DNA of 42,305 bases from UHGV virus genome UHGV-0118819; one strand, 5' to 3'. The notes beneath the pieces were generated by a model, which worked only from the letters and a program-made list of their open reading frames with translations, searched no databases and was not told where the DNA came from. Origin of the DNA: a virus. The first letter of the stretch is position 1. Each line of letters starts with the position of its first letter. The translations under genes and the position numbers were made by a program. Shown piece after piece: positions 14,609 through 40,199 of the stretch.

Positions 14609-15754
14609 ATGGCACAGGGCTTGCCTGTATCAAACGTTGTTAATGTTGATGTGATCATGTCGCCGCGTGCAGCATCAGGGCGAAATTTTGGTGCATTACT
14701 CATTCTCGGCCCGTCCACAATCATTCCGGTAAGTGAGCGCATTCGCCGTTATTCTGCCGCGGAAGATATTGGAAAAGATTTTGGCGTGGAATCACCAGAA
14801 TATAAAGCTGCGCAGGTGTTTTTCTCACAATCACCGAAACCTCAGGAGGTTTTTGTTGGTCGTTGGGTGAAAACGAAGGGAGACAGCGAACAGGCCACGC
14901 CTGAGACGCTGGAGCAGGCTGTGAATGCCATGCTTGATTATACTTCATGGTATGGGCTGGGGATTGCAGACGATGCAGATATTCCGGATGCAGACTGGCT
15001 GAAAGTGGCTGCGGCGATCGAATCCTCTTCTGTAAGCCGTATTCTGGCGATTACGACAAGCGATGAGAAATGCCTGCAGACTGCATCCAGCGATGATTTG
15101 GCATCAAAACTGAAAACCGCCGGATATTCACGCAGTTTTATTCAATATTCATCGGGTAATAAATACGCTGCGTTATCTGCATTTGGCCGGGCATTCACGG
15201 TTAATTTCAATGGCAGTAATACCGCGATTACGCTCAAGTTTAAGCAGGAGCCGGGTGTCGGGTATGAAACACTGACAGTCAGCCAGGCATCGGCACTTGA
15301 TGCAAAAAACTGCAATGTGTTCGTGTACTACCAGAATGATACAGCTATCCTCCAGCAGGGAGTGATGGCTAACGGCGATTTCTTTGATGAACGCCACGGC
15401 CTGGACTGGTTACAGAATTATGTGCAGACCAACCTCTATAACCTGCTTTATACCAGCACCACGAAAGTTCCCCAGACTGAAGCCGGTATTACCCGACTGT
15501 TATCAAATGTTGAAAAATCACTGGATCAGGCCGTTCAGAATGGACTGATTGCTCCGGGCGTATGGAACGGGGGCGACCTTGGCCAGTTGTCATCAGGTGA
15601 CACGCTGCCCAAAGGTTATTACGTATACGCCCAGCCGCTGGATGAACAGGCACAATCAGAACGTGAAGCCCGTAAGGCTCCGGTGATTCAGGCTGCAATA
15701 AAACTTGCAGGCGCGGTTCATTACGCTGACGTACAGATTAACGTTGTTCGCTAA
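14609..15754 (+). CDS. tail sheath protein (DUF3383-like)
   Basis: 381-aa ORF followed by tube, chaperone and tape measure genes (contractile-tail gene order). Confidence 0.7.
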
Positions 15755-15764
15755 GGGGAAGTGA

Positions 15765-16205
15765 ATGTCTACCTATTCTTTTATGGATGTCACTGCGACG
15801 CTGACCGGGCCGACCGGTTCGATTGACCTCGGGTACGGTTCTGCAAGTTCTGAAGAGGGGATTGTGGTTGCGATGGGCGGCCCTAAAAACACCATGACCA
15901 TCGGTTCTGATGGCGAAGTGATGCACAGTCTCCATGCAGATAAAAGCGGGACGATTACCGTTAACCTTCTGAAGACATCACCGACAAATAAAAAATTGTC
16001 GCTGGCGTATAACGCACAGAGCCAGTCTTCTGCCACATGGGGGAATAACGTTATTGTGATCCGAAACAAGGTCAGCGGCGACATCATCACGGCACGCAGT
16101 GTTGCGTTCCAGAAACAACCGGATAATGCCAACGCTAAAACCGGTAATACGATGCCGTGGGTGTTTGACTGCGGCAAGATTGACCAGGTTCTCGGGGAGT
16201 TTTAA
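15765..16205 (+). CDS. tail tube protein
   Basis: 146-aa ORF between sheath and chaperone. Confidence 0.7.
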   Translation: MSTYSFMDVTATLTGPTGSIDLGYGSASSEEGIVVAMGGPKNTMTIGSDGEVMHSLHADKSGTITVNLLKTSPTNKKLSLAYNAQSQSSATWGNNVIVIRNKVSGDIITARSVAFQKQPDNANAKTGNTMPWVFDCGKIDQVLGEF

Positions 16206-16208
16206 TAC

Positions 16209-16661
16209 ATGGAATTCGAAATCAAAGGCGTGAAATATCGCGCGGCAAAACTCAGCGTTTTTGATCAGCTGAAAGTGACCCGCAAACTTCTACCGGTGCT
16301 GGCAGGAATGATGTCAGATTTCGGGAGCATTCGCTCCCGTTTGCCTGCTGATGGCAAAATCGACACCGTGAAATTCGAGCAGTTAAAACCGGTGTTTGAA
16401 ACCATGCTCCCGCGTATCGCTGAGGAACTGTCTTCCCTGACCGAAGATGACACCAGTGCGATTATTCATCCCTGTCTTGCGGTGGTATCGCGGCGTCATA
16501 TGGACGGATGGGTTCCGGTATTTACCCAGGGCGAACTGATGTTTGATGATATTGACTTGCTGGTCATGCTGCATCTGGTGGCGCGGGTGGTCGCCGATTC
16601 GCTGGGAAATTTTTTGCCTACACCCCTTACCAGCACGACGCAGAGCCTGCAACAGGGCTGA
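16209..16661 (+). CDS. tail assembly chaperone (short form)
   Basis: 150-aa ORF immediately upstream of tape measure gene with slippery site near its 3' end. Confidence 0.7.
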   Translation: MEFEIKGVKYRAAKLSVFDQLKVTRKLLPVLAGMMSDFGSIRSRLPADGKIDTVKFEQLKPVFETMLPRIAEELSSLTEDDTSAIIHPCLAVVSRRHMDGWVPVFTQGELMFDDIDLLVMLHLVARVVADSLGNFLPTPLTSTTQSLQQG

Positions 16662-16849
16662 CGTTTAACAGCCTGCCGGACGGGCTGTCTTACCTTCTCA
16701 ATCCGGTTGACGCCGGGTTAATTCCTTATACAGCACTTAAAGATGGCTCTGTCGATTTGTACGACATTGCTCTCTTGAATGACCATCTGGCGGTAAAAGC
16801 GGATAACCAGCGGCGCATTGAGAAATGGAGAGAGGATAATGAACGCTGA
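16209..16849 (+). CDS. tail assembly chaperone, frameshift-extended fusion form (G/GT-like)
   Basis: 0-frame 16209 to slippery site joined to -1 frame ...KFFAYTPYQHDAEPATGLTFNSLPDGLSYLLNPVDAGLIPYTALKDGSVDLYDIALLNDHLAVKADNQRRIEKWREDNER*. Confidence 0.5.
16604..16613 (+). promoter_or_regulatory. programmed -1 ribosomal frameshift slippery site
   Basis: CTG GGA AAT TTT TTG: overlapping heptamers G GGA AAT and A AAT TTT; -1 frame stays open for about 80 codons to a TGA at 16847-16849. Confidence 0.55.
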
Positions 16850-18827
16850 AACTATTAAAGATTTCCTCGTCTCGCTTGGCTTCAGTGTGGATGATGCAGG
16901 AGCGAAAAAGTTCGGTTCTGTCCTCGCCGGTACAACTGCAAATGTCATCAAAATGGGGCTGGCTGTTGAAGGATCTGCGCTGTCCGTGGTGGCCTTCACG
17001 GCTAAGATCGCCTCCGGCCTGGATAATCTTTACTGGGCGTCACAGCGCACCGGCGCGACAGTCCAGGGAATTCAGTCTATTGGCTATGCGGTTTCGCAGG
17101 TTGGCGGCAGCGTGGACGCGGCGCGAACCTCTCTGGAAAGCCTCTCCCGGTTTGTTCGTAACAATCCCGGCGCGGAAGGCTTCCTGAATCGCCTGGGCGT
17201 ACAGACCCGTGATGCCAGCGGCAACATGCGCGACATGGCCGCTATCTTTACGGGTGTCGGACAGAAGCTCAGCAGCATGCCGTATTACCGGGCTAACCAG
17301 TATGCGCAGATGCTTGGCATTGACGAAAATACCCTCATGGCGATGCGCCGGGGTGTGGGTGATTTCTCCGGGCAGTACAGCGCAATGGCGAAAGCTATCG
17401 GCTTCAATGCTGACGAGGCGGCCAGAAGCTCCAACAAATTTATGACCTCCCTGCGTGAGTTTGGCGCGATGGCAGGCATGGCCCGTGACAAAATCGGCTC
17501 TAATCTTGCGGGTGGGCTTGCGGGTTCGCTGGACACTCTGCGCCGCCATATCCTGGACAACTTCCCGCGCATCGAGCAGACCCTGACGAAAGCCATAAAA
17601 GGCATTCTGGCGCTCGGGGATATTATCGGGCGGCTGTTCTTCAGACTGATTGAAGGAACATCAGGCCTCATCACCTGGTGGCAATCGCTGGATAAGCAAA
17701 CGCGGGAGCTCATCTCGCTGTTTGGCGCGCTGACGATTGCGCTGCGCATTCTGAACAGTACGTTCTGGATGTCGCCGATTGGCCTCATTACCGCGCTGGC
17801 GGCGGGGATTGCCCTTCTGTGGGAGGACTATCAGACCTGGAAGGAAGGCGGCGACAGCCTGATTGACTGGGGCAAGTGGAAGCCGGAGGTCGATGCCGCG
17901 CTGAAGATGGTTCGTGACCTGAAAGGGTCTGTTAATGAACTGGCGAAAGCGCTGGCGAAACTGCTCAATATTGACCCCAAATCATGGTCCCTGAAGTGGG
18001 ATTTCAGCAACTTCATCGACCAGATGGGCGAATTCAGCAAAATGCTGAACATGATCGCCGACCTGCTCAACGCTATCAAAGATGGCCGCTGGGCTGATGC
18101 CGTCAGCATCGGCAAACAGATACTTAATCAGGGCAGCGAAAATCCGTCAGCGATGCCGATGGTTACAGACAGCGCTAACAGTACTGCCGACTGGATTAAA
18201 GAGCACTGGGGATTCGATCCCCGCAGTGTGGGCCGGACGGTACGCGGCTGGTTTGGTGATGATGAGCCGGAACAATATGCACAGGCTACGAAACGAGGAG
18301 AACGGAATAACAATCCGGGAAACCTTAATTTTGCTGGTCAGGCAGGGGCTTCTCTTGAACGCCCGGGCGGGCGATTTGCCAGATTTGAAACTGCTTTTGA
18401 TGGATTACGGGCTCTTGCTCGTCAGTTAATGCTGTACGCCGGACGGGGAATAAACAGTGTGGAGAAAATTATCTCTACCTGGGCACCTGCGTCTGATAAT
18501 AACAACACAACTGCGTATATCAGGGCTGTATCGCAACGACTGGGAGTGGATCCCCGGGCTGCCCTGAATATGAGCGATCCGCAAACCATGTCAGCATTGA
18601 TGAGCAGCATTATCCAGCATGAAAATGGAAGAAATATCTATTCTCGAGAGCTGATTAATAAGGCTGCCGTGGCGGGAATTAGTGGCAAAATGACAGAGGT
18701 TAACCAGCAAAATACTTACCACATTTACGGTGGCGGAGATCCGCACGCTGTCGGTAATGAGGTTGCACGTCGGCAACAGTCTGCAAATGCTCAGGTCATG
18801 CGGAGTAATCAGGTGAGGGTGGGTTAG
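16839..18827 (+). CDS. tail tape measure protein
   Basis: About 660-aa helical protein after the chaperone; ATG at 16839 preferred over 16818. Confidence 0.85.
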   Translation: MNAETIKDFLVSLGFSVDDAGAKKFGSVLAGTTANVIKMGLAVEGSALSVVAFTAKIASGLDNLYWASQRTGATVQGIQSIGYAVSQVGGSVDAARTSLESLSRFVRNNPGAEGFLNRLGVQTRDASGNMRDMAAIFTGVGQKLSSMPYYRANQYAQMLGIDENTLMAMRRGVGDFSGQYSAMAKAIGFNADEAARSSNKFMTSLREFGAMAGMARDKIGSNLAGGLAGSLDTLRRHILDNFPRIEQTLTKAIKGILALGDIIGRLFFRLIEGTSGLITWWQSLDKQTRELISLFGALTIALRILNSTFWMSPIGLITALAAGIALLWEDYQTWKEGGDSLIDWGKWKPEVDAALKMVRDLKGSVNELAKALAKLLNIDPKSWSLKWDFSNFIDQMGEFSKMLNMIADLLNAIKDGRWADAVSIGKQILNQGSENPSAMPMVTDSANSTADWIKEHWGFDPRSVGRTVRGWFGDDEPEQYAQATKRGERNNNPGNLNFAGQAGASLERPGGRFARFETAFDGLRALARQLMLYAGRGINSVEKIISTWAPASDNNNTTAYIRAVSQRLGVDPRAALNMSDPQTMSALMSSIIQHENGRNIYSRELINKAAVAGISGKMTEVNQQNTYHIYGGGDPHAVGNEVARRQQSANAQVMRSNQVRVG

Positions 18828-19414
18828 TGGATATTCTCTCTACACTTTTTCATCAGCAGAGCAGAAAAATAGGAATGATTGTTCCCAGTGTTGTTATTTC
18901 AGAGAAGCATACAGATATGCTTGAAATAACAGAGCATCCGGTAGAGGTTGGGGCCGCTGTCGCTGATCATGCCTATAAAAAACCGTCAGAAGTGGTGATG
19001 GAGGTTGGTTTCGCCGGTGGCGGCGCATTGCTGGATTTTGCCAGTAATCTGACGGCTACCAGCCTGCTCGGCCTGAGTCCTCAGCAGACGTATCAGGAGC
19101 TACTGGATCTGCAGGAAAGCCGTATCCCCTTCGATGTGGTAACCGGTAAACGACTGTACAGCAACATGTTGATCCGGGCGCTGGAAGTGACGACGGACAA
19201 GACAACCGAAAACGTCCTGTCCGCCGTCCTCACCCTGAGGGAGGTCCTTATCTCCCGGACACAGCAGATTACCGTCGCGGATAAAACCAACATGAAGGAA
19301 GGGGCCAGCACGTCGGCGGTACAGAATAGCGGCAACAAAACCACAAAGCCTCCAGATACTTCACTGCTGAAAAGCATCACGGGTAACGTGGCGTCATTAC
19401 TGGGAGGCGGCTAA
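18827..19414 (+). CDS. tail/baseplate protein, hypothetical
   Basis: ORF between tape measure and baseplate genes. Confidence 0.55.
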   Translation: MDILSTLFHQQSRKIGMIVPSVVISEKHTDMLEITEHPVEVGAAVADHAYKKPSEVVMEVGFAGGGALLDFASNLTATSLLGLSPQQTYQELLDLQESRIPFDVVTGKRLYSNMLIRALEVTTDKTTENVLSAVLTLREVLISRTQQITVADKTNMKEGASTSAVQNSGNKTTKPPDTSLLKSITGNVASLLGGG

Positions 19415-19716
19415 TGATAATTCAGGAAATTCCGCTGACAGCGGACAACCAGCAGTTCAGCATCGTCCTGGGTGGTGTCACTTGGCAGATTAGCATCATA
19501 TGGCGCGATCTTTACTGGATTATGGACCTGCAGAACGACAGAGGGGAGCCGGTAATCTCCGGTATTCCTCTCGTCACTGGCGCTGATCTGCTGGCGCAGT
19601 ACGCCTGTATGGGGCTTGGTTTTAAGCTGGTGGTGGTCTGCGATGACAACACACAGGATTATCCCTCGAAAACTGATCTGGGTGGCCGCAGTCATTTACT
19701 GGTATCAACGGAGTAA
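19414..19716 (+). CDS. tail/baseplate protein, hypothetical
   Basis: 100-aa ORF, ATGA-coupled. Confidence 0.55.
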   Translation: MIIQEIPLTADNQQFSIVLGGVTWQISIIWRDLYWIMDLQNDRGEPVISGIPLVTGADLLAQYACMGLGFKLVVVCDDNTQDYPSKTDLGGRSHLLVSTE

Positions 19717-19718
19717 GC

Positions 19719-37945: not shown

Positions 37946-38773
37946 ATGGGGTATGTCTCTATACACCGCCAGTTTATGGACAGCAGGCTCTATAAGGACT
38001 CTCAGGCAGTACATCTTTGGCTTCACTTAATCCTCAAGGCTAATCACGAATCTACTGTCGTCAATACGGATATCGGTCCGATAACTGTTGATCGCGGTCA
38101 GATGATAACTGGACGCCCGTCGCTGGTCAGAGAAACATTCATCCCCGACAACAAAGTTCGGAGCTTATTACGGACTTTTGAGTCGAAAGGGATGCTTAAT
38201 ATTTGCTCGATGGGGAAGAAATTTAGCCTGTTTACAATCGTTAAATATGACGATTTTCAGGCAAAAAATTGTCCAACGGTTGTCCAACGGTTGTCCAACG
38301 CAAACACCAGTAATGGCGCTGCTCTCAGCGGAGATTGTCCAACGGTTGTCCAACGATTGTCCATAAACAATAATATAAATAATATCTCTAATACTGACGT
38401 ATTAGAGAGTGCCACAGCAGACAAAAAGTCTGACAAGAAAAAACCTTCCGTCAGCTGTCAGGATGTTGTCGATGCTTACCACGAAATCCTTCCTGAAGCG
38501 CCAAGAATCCGCGCACTGAATGACAAGCGTAAAAACCAGATCCGAACGTTCTGGCGCAAAGCCGGAGTGATAACCCGCCAGCTTGACGGGCATGGGTTCA
38601 CGATGCAGGACTGGAGAAATTATTTGAGCTACGTAGGCGAAAATTGCCGATGGATGTTCGAAGAACGCCCAAACCATCAACGCGGAACCGTCTGGCACAA
38701 AAAGGGATTTGATTTCCTGCTTAACGACAATACCTACCTGAAAGTTCGTGAGGGTGAACACGATGACCGATAA
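37946..38773 (+). CDS. replication initiator (O-like) containing origin iterons
   Basis: ATG 37946 with AGGAGG RBS (ORF-track start 37883); iteron DNA translated as NCPTVVQRLSN...DCPTVVQRLSINNN. Confidence 0.7.
   Translation: MGYVSIHRQFMDSRLYKDSQAVHLWLHLILKANHESTVVNTDIGPITVDRGQMITGRPSLVRETFIPDNKVRSLLRTFESKGMLNICSMGKKFSLFTIVKYDDFQAKNCPTVVQRLSNANTSNGAALSGDCPTVVQRLSINNNINNISNTDVLESATADKKSDKKKPSVSCQDVVDAYHEILPEAPRIRALNDKRKNQIRTFWRKAGVITRQLDGHGFTMQDWRNYLSYVGENCRWMFEERPNHQRGTVWHKKGFDFLLNDNTYLKVREGEHDDR
38269..38410. repeat. origin of replication: six 11-bp iterons (TTGTCCAACGG) in two clusters plus AT-rich region
   Basis: Iterons at 38269-38301 and 38335-38367 followed by AATAATATAAATAATATCTCTAATA. 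Confidence 0.65.
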
Positions 38774-40199
38774 TTTTTATGCGCCGCCCCATAGCATCGA
38801 GGCAGAGCAGGCGGTGATTGGTGGATTGCTTCTGGATGATGACAGCAGTGAGCGCGTCCAGAAAGTTCTGGCGATGCTGAAGCCTGATTCATTTTACAGT
38901 CGACCACACAAAATCCTTTTCGAAGAAATAACCAGAATGCACCGTGAGCAAAAGCCAGTAGATGGCCTGACGCTTTTCGATGAACTGGAGCGTAAATCGT
39001 TAACGGCGTCTGTTGGCGGTTTTGCTTATATCGCTGAGATCGCAAAGAACACGCCAAGCGCAGCAAACATCGTTGCCTATGCAATGCAGGTTCGTGAAAC
39101 CGCAATGGAACGCTACGCCATCAACCGCATGACTGAAGCGACGGAATTGCTCTATTCCCGCAACGGAATGACTGCAACGCAGAAGTACGAAGCTATTCAG
39201 GCGATTTTCACGCAACTGACAGACCATGCAAAAACCGGATCGCGTCGCGGCCTTCGCTCATTTGGTGAGGTCATGGAAGACTGGGTTAGCGACCTTGAGA
39301 AGCGATTTGACCCGTCAGGCGAACAACGAGGAATGAGCACAGGGATCCCATCGCTGGACAGGATGCTGTCACCGAAAGGTCTGGTGAAAGGCTCTCTGTT
39401 TGTCATTGGCGCTCGCCCTAAGATGGGGAAAACGACGCTATACAGCCAGATGGCAATCAACTGCGCAGTGCATGAGAAAAAGCCCGCTCTGATGTTCAGC
39501 CTTGAAATGCCAGGTGATCAGATACTGGAAAAACTGGTAGGACAGAAGTCAGGTGTTAACCCGAATATTTTTTACCTTCCGGCGACAAATGACGCTGATG
39601 ACGGCTATCAGGGTGATTACGATGGTGACTTCAATAGGGCGATCGAAACAGCCAATCGCTTGAGTGAAATCGACCTGCTTTACATCGACGACACGCCGGG
39701 ATTATCTCTGGCTCAAATCGTCAGCGAAAGCCGTCGAATCAAGCGAGAAAAAGGATGTGTTGGGATGATTCTGGTCGATTACCTGACACTAATGGCCGCT
39801 GAGAAGGCCGATCGTAACGACCTTGCTTACGGCATGATCACCAAAGGACTGAAGAACCTTGCCAAAGAGCTTGATTGCGTTGTTGTGCTTCTGACGCAGC
39901 TTAACCGCGCACTGGAAAGCCGAACCAATAAACGCCCATTACCAAGTGACTCACGAGATACAGGGCAGATTGAACAGGATTGCGATTATTGGGTTGGGAT
40001 CCATCGTGAAGGTGCTTTTGATGACAGTGTTCCACCTGGTGAAACCGAACTAATCCTTCGTCTCAATCGTCATGGCAATACCGGTACGGTGTATTGCATT
40101 CAGGCAAATGGCGCTATTTATGACACAGACCAACAGTCTGCTGAAATTCGCCGCCGTGAACGCGAGGAACCGCAGTCCAAGAAGAAAGGAGGATTCTGA
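38763..40199 (+). CDS. replicative DNA helicase (DnaB-like)
   Basis: 478 aa from ATG 38763; Walker A GARPKMGKTT; DnaB-like N-terminal IEAEQAVIGGLLLD. Confidence 0.9.
   Translation: MTDNFYAPPHSIEAEQAVIGGLLLDDDSSERVQKVLAMLKPDSFYSRPHKILFEEITRMHREQKPVDGLTLFDELERKSLTASVGGFAYIAEIAKNTPSAANIVAYAMQVRETAMERYAINRMTEATELLYSRNGMTATQKYEAIQAIFTQLTDHAKTGSRRGLRSFGEVMEDWVSDLEKRFDPSGEQRGMSTGIPSLDRMLSPKGLVKGSLFVIGARPKMGKTTLYSQMAINCAVHEKKPALMFSLEMPGDQILEKLVGQKSGVNPNIFYLPATNDADDGYQGDYDGDFNRAIETANRLSEIDLLYIDDTPGLSLAQIVSESRRIKREKGCVGMILVDYLTLMAAEKADRNDLAYGMITKGLKNLAKELDCVVVLLTQLNRALESRTNKRPLPSDSRDTGQIEQDCDYWVGIHREGAFDDSVPPGETELILRLNRHGNTGTVYCIQANGAIYDTDQQSAEIRRREREEPQSKKKGGF

What the first reader, a model, noticed from the sequence alone, without database searches (positions are those of the whole stretch)
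16604..16849. Unannotated programmed -1 frameshift producing an extended tail assembly chaperone
Near the 3' end of the chaperone gene the sequence CTG GGA AAT TTT TTG contains overlapping slippery heptamers (G GGA AAT and A AAT TTT). The -1 frame is then open for about 80 codons to a TGA at 16847-16849, overlapping the tape measure start. This is the conserved G/GT-type arrangement but is invisible in a simple ORF track.
Basis: partly seen in the sequence, partly recalled or inferred. Interest (0 to 1): 0.45.

Follow-up and report, generated by a model that had tools for sequence, protein, structure and literature searches.

The report
Tail chaperone -1 frameshift, real but ordinary
This phage's tail assembly chaperone gene very probably uses a conserved -1 ribosomal frameshift to make a longer second protein; this is a well-known phage trick that databases mislabel here as a separate small gene of unknown function.

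Summary
The chaperone gene (16209-16661, Pfam Phage_TAC_15) reads CTG GGA AAT TTT TTG at 16602-16616. The -1 frame is open from 16556 to a TGA at 16847-16849, overlapping the tape-measure ATG at 16839.

The -1 stretch is coding:
- It matches Pfam DUF6889 (E=9e-20).
- In 54 distinct related loci it has no stops, a constant length of 77-80 codons and third-position variation.
- It has no conserved canonical start codon.

Synonymous-site suppression is confined to the five slippery codons. Across distant relatives (Burkholderia, Acinetobacter, Bordetella, Ralstonia, Providencia and Edwardsiella phages) the only universal element is T_TTY at the Phe codon (16610-16613). A_AAT_TTT (16607-16613) is therefore the best candidate heptamer. 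I found no downstream stimulatory structure.

This is not new as a kind. It is the lambda G/GT arrangement, and homologues in Klebsiella phage Mulock and Burkholderia phage Magia already carry a "frameshift product" annotation. The nearest phage records leave the stretch empty. RefSeq calls it a stand-alone "DUF6889 family protein" with a CTG start, which is probably an annotation artefact.

No fusion protein has been shown experimentally.

The parts
14609..15754 (+). Tail sheath gene (context)
   Evidence: Pfam DUF3383 at E=5e-101 and phrog_205 'tail sheath'.
15765..16205 (+). Tail tube gene (context), immediately upstream of the chaperone
   Evidence: Pfam KPP10_Orf10 (called Phage_Tube_PhiTE) at E=7e-60.
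16209..16661 (+). Tail assembly chaperone, 0-frame product (150 aa), the short 'G-like' form
   Evidence: Pfam Phage_TAC_15 at 106 bits against a cutoff of 22. phrog_1688 'tail assembly chaperone' at E=2e-64.
16586..16590 (+). GGTGG, a candidate Shine-Dalgarno-like upstream stimulator (weak, unproven)
   Evidence: An SD-like motif ends 19 nt before the T-run in 33 of 54 relatives. It coincides with conserved Arg-Val-Val codons. It lies at or beyond the edge of the 6-17 nt range used by Sharma et al. 2014.
16604..16616 (+). Slippery run G_GGA_AAT_TTT_TTG. It holds three overlapping heptamers: G_GGA_AAT (16604-16610), A_AAT_TTT (16607-16613) and T_TTT_TTG (16610-16616)
   Evidence: These are the only codons in the gene with near-zero synonymous variation (L132 0.21, G133 0.14, N134 0, F135 0, codon 136 0). 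Codon counts in 54 relatives are GGA 50, AAT 51, TTT 54 and TTG 49.
16610..16613 (+). Universal core T_TTT: the Phe135 codon preceded by T. It is the most likely A-site shift codon
   Evidence: It is the only element shared by all relatives, including those distant relatives that have C_CCT_TTT, G_GGT_TTT, GAT_TTT or ACT_TTC.
16613..16849 (+). -1 frame extension (78 codons plus TGA). It forms the C-terminal 'T-like' part of the predicted 213-aa fusion ...SLGNF-FAYTPYQHD...REDNER
   Evidence: It shows coding periodicity, has no stops in relatives and has a constant length of 77-80 codons.
16724..16840 (+). DUF6889 domain (Pfam PF21829), fusion residues 173-211, read in the -1 frame
   Evidence: Pfam gives 70.6 bits against a cutoff of 23.9 (E=9e-20). 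phrog_4364 matches at E=1e-22.
16685..16849 (+). Position of RefSeq's stand-alone 54-aa 'DUF6889 family protein' call (CTG start), probably an annotation artefact
   Evidence: Mapped from NZ_CP093068 and other records. Conserved -1-frame residues such as P140 and P157 lie upstream of this start.
16839..18827 (+). Tape measure protein gene. Its ATG overlaps the end of the -1 ORF by 11 nt
   Evidence: phrog_2276 'tail length tape measure protein' at E=7e-282. The sequence reads ATGAACGCTGA.

Best explanation
A minority of ribosomes translating the tail assembly chaperone gene slip back one nucleotide on the run G_GGA_AAT_TTT_TTG. The slip most likely occurs with tRNA-Phe on UUU (16611-16613) in the A site and tRNA-Asn on AAU in the P site, that is, on the heptamer A_AAU_UUU. 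These ribosomes then read 78 further codons in the -1 frame to the TGA at 16847-16849. Two proteins with the same N-terminal chaperone domain result: an abundant 150-aa form and a rare 213-aa form ending in the DUF6889 domain. By analogy with lambda gpG/gpGT (inferred, not shown here), the shared domain would coat the tape measure protein, and the extension would recruit the tail tube protein, with the ratio fixed by slip efficiency. Shown here: the sequence anatomy, the coding status of the -1 frame, the conservation, the lack of an independent start and the lack of a downstream structure. Inferred: that slippage is ribosomal, which heptamer is used, the low efficiency and the role in assembly.
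For: - Gene order is sheath, tube, TAC, gap, tape measure, with Pfam Phage_TAC_15 on the 0-frame product.
- The -1 extension matches Pfam DUF6889 (E=9e-20) and phrog_4364.
- In 54 distinct loci from about 50 species at 46-85% identity, the -1 ORF always runs 60-65 codons past the 0-frame stop, while the +1 frame is usually short.
- Entropy at -1-frame codon position 3 is about twice that at positions 1 and 2, both after the 0-frame stop and inside the overlap zone. There are 0 stops in the -1 frame against 4-6 in the other frames.
- Residues P140, P157, G180, D183, L184, D192, N200 and W207 are invariant yet show synonymous variation.
- Synonymous suppression is confined to the five slippery codons.
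- All 54 loci keep T before TTT. GGA accompanies AAT in 50 of 51 loci.
- There is no conserved ATG, GTG or TTG. The first canonical start in -1 lies at extension codon 16-60 or is absent, and PGAP has to use CTG.
- tblastn with the fusion finds two pieces on 40 phage records, with the fusion largely covered (at least 80%) on 36 of them. The ten loci read in detail have slippery motifs at the homologous Phe codon.
- Sharma et al. 2014 place H_HH.U_UU.Y heptamers among the most efficient in E. coli, and find that cognate A-site re-pairing is the main rule.
- Homologues in phages Mulock and Magia are annotated as frameshift products.
Against: - No protein-level evidence exists for this family. 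No paper mentions DUF6889.
- There is no downstream hairpin or pseudoknot. The window z-score is -0.84, RNAalifold gives about 0 kcal/mol over 53 sequences, and Rfam has no hit. Efficiency is therefore probably low and unquantified.
- The heptamer cannot be assigned from sequence. Four close relatives lack A_AAT_TTT and keep only T_TTT_TTG/T. Edwardsiella phage ZHS has only the tetramer T_TTT.
- The structure prediction of the fusion was unusable (pLDDT 39.8), so the function of the extension rests on analogy alone.
Confidence: 0.87

Rival explanations
1. The -1 ORF is an independent small gene, the RefSeq 'DUF6889 family protein' of 54 aa. It would be initiated at CTG 16685, or reinitiated after termination of the chaperone ORF.
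For: PGAP annotates it this way in hundreds of E. coli genomes. Stand-alone calls of 43-78 aa populate the protein databases. The 0-frame stop overlaps a -1-frame Leu codon (CTGA), which superficially resembles a stop-start overlap.
Against: No ATG, GTG or TTG is conserved in the -1 ORF. Many relatives have their first canonical start only at extension codon 54-60, and one has none. The annotated CTG differs between records (16685 against 16673), and the Leu at that position is only 59% conserved. Conserved -1-frame residues (Y138, P140, P157, G159) and -1-frame periodicity begin directly after the T-run, upstream of every proposed start and of the 0-frame stop. The Leu codon overlapping the stop is TTA in several relatives, which is not an initiator. 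No promoter-like site lies in the gap.
Confidence: 0.04
2. The fusion is made by transcriptional slippage. RNA polymerase would add one extra U in the T6 run (16610-16615), giving an mRNA in which the two ORFs are in frame.
For: The T-run is the invariant element in close relatives (T6 or T7). A T7 DNA variant (L007, P0001) encodes exactly the in-frame 213-aa fusion. Poly-T tracts are also conserved in the chaperone genes of Vandenendeviridae and Andersonviridae.
Against: Bacterial transcriptional slippage is documented on runs of about 9 A or T (Atkins et al. 2016), whereas here there are 6. Distant homologues keep the arrangement with only TTTT (C_CCT_TTT A, GAT TTT A) or ACT TTC, which is too short for polymerase slippage but adequate for tRNA-Phe re-pairing. 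Synonymous constraint also covers GGA and AAT, upstream of the T-run, as expected for heptamer re-pairing.
Confidence: 0.06
3. The arrangement is a decayed gene: a frameshift mutation in an ancestrally single chaperone-DUF6889 ORF, with no fusion protein produced.
For: Some relatives are clearly damaged prophages, namely L015, L036 and an IS30 insertion in H31.
Against: The same two-frame layout, slippery motif and intact -1 ORF recur in more than 50 species and in plaque-forming or induced phages such as SEN34, YP3, 606R2, Mulock and Magia. Purifying selection acts on the -1 frame. Only one in-frame version was found among 684 homologues.
Confidence: 0.01

Closest known systems
Phage lambda gpG/gpGT tail assembly chaperone frameshift (Levin, Hendrix and Casjens 1993; Xu, Hendrix and Duda 2004, 2013, 2014; summarised in PMC5009743)
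   Same: Both have two overlapping ORFs between the major tail (tube) gene and the tape-measure gene. [quoted passage not shown] The extension has no start of its own. A low-efficiency shift is expected. My recollection (not stated in the passages read) is that lambda also has no known strong RNA stimulator.
   Different: No sequence similarity to gpG or gpT was tested or seen here; the domains are Phage_TAC_15 and DUF6889. The phage is a contractile-tailed myovirus. The likely shift codon is UUU (tRNA-Phe), not AAG (tRNA-Lys). Lambda's fusion protein, ratio and function are experimentally established, whereas here they are inferred.
Klebsiella phage Mulock CPT_Mulock_014/015 and Burkholderia phage Magia CPT_Magia_015/016, 'tape measure chaperone frameshift product' (GenBank MN098327, MT701587)
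   Same: These are true homologues, at 58% and 36% identity to the predicted fusion. Mulock has the identical GGGAAATTTTTTG run. Magia has C_CCT_TTT at the same Phe codon. Both are annotated as joined CDSs.
   Different: They are annotation-only calls. The Mulock genome announcement does not mention the frameshift, and there is no experimental support. The window's closest phage relatives (606R2, YP3, SEN34) lack the annotation.
TAC-N/TAC-NC -1 frameshift proposed for Pakpunavirus Adele, Vandenendeviridae and Andersonviridae (PMC12846349, 2025)
   Same: These are myoviruses in which a stretch upstream of the tape-measure gene is routinely mis-annotated as a hypothetical gene. The -1 frame is open in all genomes. 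The proposed slippery signal is an invariant GTTTTT poly-T motif. My recollection (not tested here) is that KPP10 belongs to this phage group, which would link it to the window's tube family, Pfam KPP10_Orf10.
   Different: tblastn with the fusion found no Pakpunavirus records at E<=1e-3, so homology of the chaperone itself is unverified. That extension is described as over 200 bp, and its motif context differs.
Phage P2 gpE/gpE+E' (myovirus chaperone frameshift; cited in PMC5009743)
   Same: It is a contractile-tailed phage with a -1 frameshift between the tube and tape-measure genes. My recollection (not checked here) is that P2 uses a T-rich slip site.
   Different: Different protein families are presumed, but this was not tested. 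P2's efficiency is reported as 2-3 fold higher than lambda's, whereas nothing has been measured here.

Membership tests
G/GT-type tail assembly chaperone with programmed frameshift (Xu, Hendrix and Duda 2004) | Two overlapping ORFs located between the major tail/tube gene and the tape measure gene | tested here: met
   Tube gene at 15765-16205, TAC at 16209-16661, -1 ORF ending at 16849, tape measure gene from 16839.
G/GT-type tail assembly chaperone with programmed frameshift (Xu, Hendrix and Duda 2004) | [quoted passage not shown] | tested here: met
   Three in-frame X_XXY_YYZ heptamers lie at 16604-16616, 15 codons before the stop. They are conserved, with suppressed synonymous change.
G/GT-type tail assembly chaperone with programmed frameshift (Xu, Hendrix and Duda 2004) | Downstream ORF lacks its own start and ribosome-binding site and is under protein-level selection | tested here: met
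   No conserved canonical start. Periodicity and invariant residues with synonymous variation. Pfam DUF6889 hit.
G/GT-type tail assembly chaperone with programmed frameshift (Xu, Hendrix and Duda 2004) | Arrangement conserved among divergent relatives | tested here: met
   54 distinct bacterial loci and 40 phage records across Enterobacterales, Burkholderia, Acinetobacter, Bordetella and Ralstonia.
G/GT-type tail assembly chaperone with programmed frameshift (Xu, Hendrix and Duda 2004) | Fusion protein actually produced at a low, fixed ratio to the short form | not testable with these tools
   This needs mass spectrometry, a western blot or a reporter assay. No literature exists on DUF6889.
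G/GT-type tail assembly chaperone with programmed frameshift (Xu, Hendrix and Duda 2004) | Both forms required for tail assembly and absent from virions, with the extension binding the tube protein | not testable with these tools
   Genetic and biochemical tests are required. The AF2 model was too poor to use (pLDDT 39.8), and there is no PDB relative.
Pfam Phage_TAC_15 (PF21822) | Score above the family gathering threshold | tested here: met
   106.1 bits against a cutoff of 22, covering residues 6-138.
Pfam DUF6889 (PF21829) | Score above the family gathering threshold | tested here: met
   70.6 bits against a cutoff of 23.9 on fusion residues 173-211, read in the -1 frame.
Stimulated -1 frameshift sites of the dnaX / IS911 / IS3 type | Downstream hairpin or pseudoknot starting 4-10 nt after the motif | tested here: not met
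   The first predicted stem starts 20 nt downstream. The z-score is -0.84. RNAalifold over 53 relatives gives -0.3 kcal/mol, and the mean per-sequence z is +0.24. Rfam has no hit.
Stimulated -1 frameshift sites of the dnaX / IS911 / IS3 type | [quoted passage not shown] | tested here: inconclusive
   [quoted passage not shown] It is present in 33 of 54 relatives but is confounded with conserved Arg-Val-Val codons.
Programmed transcriptional slippage sites | Homopolymer run of about 9 or more A or T | tested here: not met
   The run is T6, T7 in a few relatives and only T4 in distant homologues. The length criterion comes from PMC5009743.

The most novel reading that the evidence does not exclude
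In this clade the shift relies on an unusual structure-free signal: three consecutive overlapping heptamers (G_GGA_AAU_UUU_UUG) under joint synonymous selection. These would give the ribosome three successive chances to slip, or alternatively would act through RNA-polymerase slippage on the U-run. Either would set the chaperone ratio without any RNA stimulator. In addition, DUF6889 would define a previously unrecognised 'T-domain' family for a large group of myovirus tails.
Probability: 0.15. Interest if true: 0.4.

Novelty: new member of a known kind. Interest (0 to 1): 0.2.

Why it matters
The main value is for annotation. The evidence indicates that 'DUF6889 family protein' (formerly 'NTP pyrophosphohydrolase'), called in hundreds of enterobacterial genomes with CTG starts, is not a gene of its own. 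It is the frameshift-encoded C-terminal domain of a tail assembly chaperone. That assigns a function to a Pfam DUF and a PHROG of unknown function. It also gives a clean comparative dataset, with a universal T_TTY core at a Phe codon and no stimulatory structure, for studying low-level frameshifting without an RNA stimulator. It does not change what is known about phage tail assembly.

Tried and rejected
- Downstream stimulatory structure: I folded 100 nt and 121 nt around the site, ran RNAalifold on 53 relatives with per-sequence z-scores, and scanned Rfam at E<=1. Nothing was significant. An MFE pairing of upstream GGGUG with downstream CACCC would enclose the ribosome-occupied slip site, and its z-score was +0.29, so I rejected it.
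- Upstream SD-like stimulator: I counted motifs using the Sharma criteria. It is present, but its spacing is marginal and it is confounded with conserved codons, so I left it as a candidate.
- Structure of the fusion: AF2 on a 92-row alignment gave pLDDT 39.8, so I made no fold search. The PDB sequence search found nothing.
- Chance control using -1 extensions past the stops of all window ORFs was uninformative, because neighbouring genes often lie in the -1 frame.
- I first concluded that T_TTT_TTG alone was the site, from four close relatives that keep only that heptamer. I revised this after seeing distant phages with C_CCT_TTT, G_GGT_TTT, A_AAT_TTT without T6, or only T_TTT or T_TTC. The core is the Phe codon preceded by T.
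- Literature: no paper mentions DUF6889. The SEN34 and Mulock papers do not discuss the frameshift. Vladimirov et al. 2022 was not available.

Full report
**1. Observation.**
The window reads TCG CTG GGA AAT TTT TTG CCT in the frame of the ORF 16209-16661. A third overlapping heptamer, T_TTT_TTG at 16610-16616, was not listed.

- The 0-frame stop is TGA at 16659-16661.
- The -1 frame is open from 16556 to 16846 (97 codons, 78 after the shift) and stops at TGA 16847-16849.
- That stop lies inside the sequence ATGAACGCTGA, whose ATG (16839) starts the tape measure gene.
- The +1 frame closes after two codons.

**2. What the genes are.**
The neighbourhood is a myovirus tail module.

| Coordinates | Gene | Evidence |
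|---|---|---|
| 14609-15754 | sheath | DUF3383, phrog_205 |
| 15765-16205 | tube | KPP10_Orf10 |
| 16209-16661 | tail assembly chaperone | Pfam Phage_TAC_15, 106 bits; phrog_1688 |
| 16839-18827 | tape measure | phrog_2276 |
| 18827-20786 | baseplate proteins (three ORFs) | Dit_like, Pam3_gp18, weak E217_GP41 |

The window as a whole is a temperate phage genome. It carries a portal, a capsid protein, an integrase and a DnaB-like helicase.

The translated -1 extension is not junk. It matches Pfam DUF6889 (70.6 bits, E=9e-20) and phrog_4364.

**3. State of annotation.**
- The closest phage records are vB_EcoM-606R2 and its siblings at 98%, Yersinia phage YP3 at 84% and Salmonella phage SEN34 at 76%. 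All leave a 177-nt hole between the chaperone and the tape measure gene.
- RefSeq E. coli genomes carry this module in 315 of 5426 genomes. The genomes examined fill the hole with a stand-alone 54-58 aa CDS, mostly named 'DUF6889 family protein'. It begins at a CTG, which corresponds to window position 16685 or to 16673 in another record.
- Older records call the same CDS 'NTP pyrophosphohydrolase'.
- Two homologues do carry a joined 'tape measure chaperone frameshift product': Klebsiella phage Mulock at 58% identity to the predicted fusion, with the same GGGAAATTTTTTG, and Burkholderia phage Magia at 36%.
- No paper mentions DUF6889. The SEN34 and Mulock papers are silent on the frameshift.

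**4. Comparative test.**
A scan of one genome per species returned 62 loci at 46-85% chaperone identity. Of these, 54 are distinct and intact.

- *Length and openness.* In every one, the -1 frame runs 60-65 codons past the 0-frame stop, giving a total extension of 77-80 codons. The +1 frame is usually short.
- *Stops and identity.* Among 41 unique 78-codon extensions, the -1 frame has no stops, against 4.3 and 5.6 per sequence in the other frames. Mean amino-acid identity is 57% in the -1 frame and 35% in the others.
- *Codon periodicity.* Column entropy at -1-frame codon position 3 is about double that at positions 1 and 2. This holds after the 0-frame stop (0.78, 0.69, 1.40) and also inside the overlap zone between the slip site and that stop (0.94, 0.74, 1.35). 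Translation in the -1 frame therefore begins upstream of the chaperone's own stop.
- *Conserved residues.* P140, P157, G180, D183, L184, D192, N200 and W207 are invariant while their codons vary.
- *No independent start.* No canonical start codon is conserved. Many loci have their first ATG, GTG or TTG only at extension codon 54-60, and one locus has none. This rules out independent initiation as the general mode of expression.

**5. The slip site.**
Synonymous variation across the gene is typically 0.4-0.7. It collapses only at the codons CTG GGA AAT TTT TTG, with values of 0.21, 0.14, 0, 0 and 0. Codon counts in the 54 loci are as follows.

| Position | Codon counts |
|---|---|
| Leu | G-ending in 50 |
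| Gly | GGA 50 |
| Asn | AAT 51, with the other three also T-ending |
| Phe | TTT 54 |
| Next codon | TTG 49, TTT 4, TTC 1 |

The close relatives vary in an informative way.
- Seven loci lack G_GGA_AAT.
- Four lack A_AAT_TTT and keep only T_TTT_TTG or T_TTT_TTT.
- In two of those four, a -1-frame stop lies immediately before the T-run.

Distant phage homologues narrow the core further.

| Phage | Sequence at the homologous site |
|---|---|
| Magia, BgManors32, WC36-2 | C_CCT_TTT followed by A |
| Acinetobacter AbTJ | G_GGA_AAT_TTT followed by A (no T6) |
| Ralstonia PY059YO380 | G_GGT_TTT_TTC |
| Providencia PSTCR3 | T_TTT_TTT |
| Bordetella IFTN9 | GGA AAT ACT TTC |
| Edwardsiella ZHS | GAT TTT only |

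The single shared element is T_TTY at the Phe codon of the conserved N-L-G-x-F motif. In the window this is 16610-16613.

With that Phe codon in the A site, the window's heptamer is A_AAT_TTT. Sharma et al. 2014 found that cognate A-site re-pairing is the dominant rule in E. coli, and they place H_HH.U_UU.Y among the most efficient motifs. U_UU.U_UU.G is listed there as efficient only in the eukaryotic assay.

The predicted product is ...SLGNF-FAYTPYQHD... and is 213 aa long. A slip on T_TTT_TTG would instead give L at residue 136. The peptide just after the junction, F-[FY]-x-[RY]-[TA]-[PA]-Y, is recognisable even in most of the distant relatives.

**6. Stimulators.**
None was found downstream.
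- The first predicted stem starts 20 nt after the motif, and the z-score is -0.84.
- RNAalifold on 53 sequences gives essentially no structure, and per-sequence z-scores average +0.24.
- Rfam has no hit.
- There is no promoter in the gap, and the one terminator-like site is what chance would give.

An SD-like GGTGG (16586-16590) occurs in 33 of 54 loci. It coincides with conserved Arg-Val-Val codons and sits at the edge of the effective spacing range. It remains a candidate only.

**7. Rivals.**
- *Stand-alone gene or reinitiation.* This is contradicted by sections 4 and 5.
- *Transcriptional slippage on T6.* The documented length requirement is about 9 nucleotides. Distant homologues have only T4, and the synonymous constraint also covers GGA and AAT, upstream of the run. 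A Logan contig (L007, P0001) has T7 and an in-frame 213-aa fusion. This shows what a one-nucleotide change yields, but it may be a homopolymer sequencing error.
- *Pseudogene.* This is contradicted by the conservation across viable phages.

**8. Function.**
By analogy with lambda gpG/gpGT, the shared N-terminal domain would bind the tape measure protein and the DUF6889 extension would recruit the tube protein. This is inference only. The AF2 model was unusable (pLDDT 39.8), and there is no PDB relative by sequence.

**9. Verdict.**
The feature is a standard G/GT-type chaperone frameshift. It is already annotated in two homologues, and a similar frameshift was argued computationally in December 2025 for myoviruses that may be more distant relatives (Pakpunavirus Adele, GTTTTT motif). 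It is a new member of a known kind and of low interest.

The useful by-products are:
- the reassignment of DUF6889 and phrog_4364 as the frameshift-encoded domain;
- the recognition that the CTG-initiated RefSeq CDSs are probably artefacts;
- the definition of the universal T_TTY core.

Noticed in passing
L007:1888-1909 (Logan contig SRR23924998_45326), protein P0001: A near-identical prophage copy has T7 instead of T6 in the slippery run. The chaperone and DUF6889 are therefore fused in frame as one 213-aa ORF, and the cluster has 16 members. This could be a homopolymer sequencing or assembly error, or a natural fusion-only mutant. It is the only fused form among 684 homologues.
   Followed up: partly
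window 16685-16849; L004:1077-1241, L006:1065-1241: RefSeq/PGAP calls the -1 ORF as a separate 'DUF6889 family protein' using CTG starts that differ between records. Older GenBank entries name the same fragment 'NTP pyrophosphohydrolase'. That name has no support from any domain hit here.
   Followed up: yes
window 16657-16661 and the same position in L008-L069: In most of the relatives inspected by eye, the chaperone's 0-frame stop overlaps a conserved -1-frame Leu codon (CTGA, TTAA or TTAG). In most relatives, the 0-frame tail after the T-run is a constant 16 codons even though its sequence is poorly conserved. The reason for the fixed stop position is unexplained.
   Followed up: partly
L046 (Izhakiella australiensis), L036 (Enterobacter sp. 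R1), L015 (Apirhabdus apintestini): These three loci are exceptions to the pattern. In L046 the -1 frame stays open for 241 codons past the chaperone stop, apparently running on into the tape-measure region. In L036 the extension is cut to 22 codons. In L015 the chaperone ORF itself is broken at 47 aa. They are probably decaying prophages or assembly errors.
   Followed up: no
window 16839-18827: The C-terminal third of the tape measure protein (about residues 442-649) matches PHROGs annotated as endolysin or tail injection transglycosylase. RefSeq names the homologue 'lytic transglycosylase' or 'SLT domain-containing protein'. The tape measure therefore seems to carry a cell-wall-degrading domain. 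An in-frame TTG at 16818 precedes the ATG at 16839.
   Followed up: no
L019 (record titled Chryseobacterium sp. 18061) and L078 (Elizabethkingia phage EKP1): Two records attributed to Bacteroidota hosts carry this Enterobacterales-type module, at 69% (chaperone) and 55% (fusion) protein identity. EKP1 has the identical GGGAAATTTTTTG run, and L019 has GGAAATTTTTTG. This suggests contamination, host mis-assignment or recent transfer.
   Followed up: no
H31, NZ_CP125889.1 (E. coli EPSSH018), 1665327-1665876: In this genome the match to the chaperone region stops at 79% of the query, and the features under the match are the chaperone and an IS30-family transposase. The insertion element apparently disrupts the chaperone to tape-measure junction.
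   Followed up: no
window 27336-28496 (-), 38748-40199 (+): The window contains an integrase (Phage_integrase, E=1e-35) and a DnaB-like replicative helicase. It therefore looks like a complete temperate myophage of the SEN34 / vB_EcoM-606R2 type (SEN34 is classified in genus Brunovirus).
   Followed up: partly
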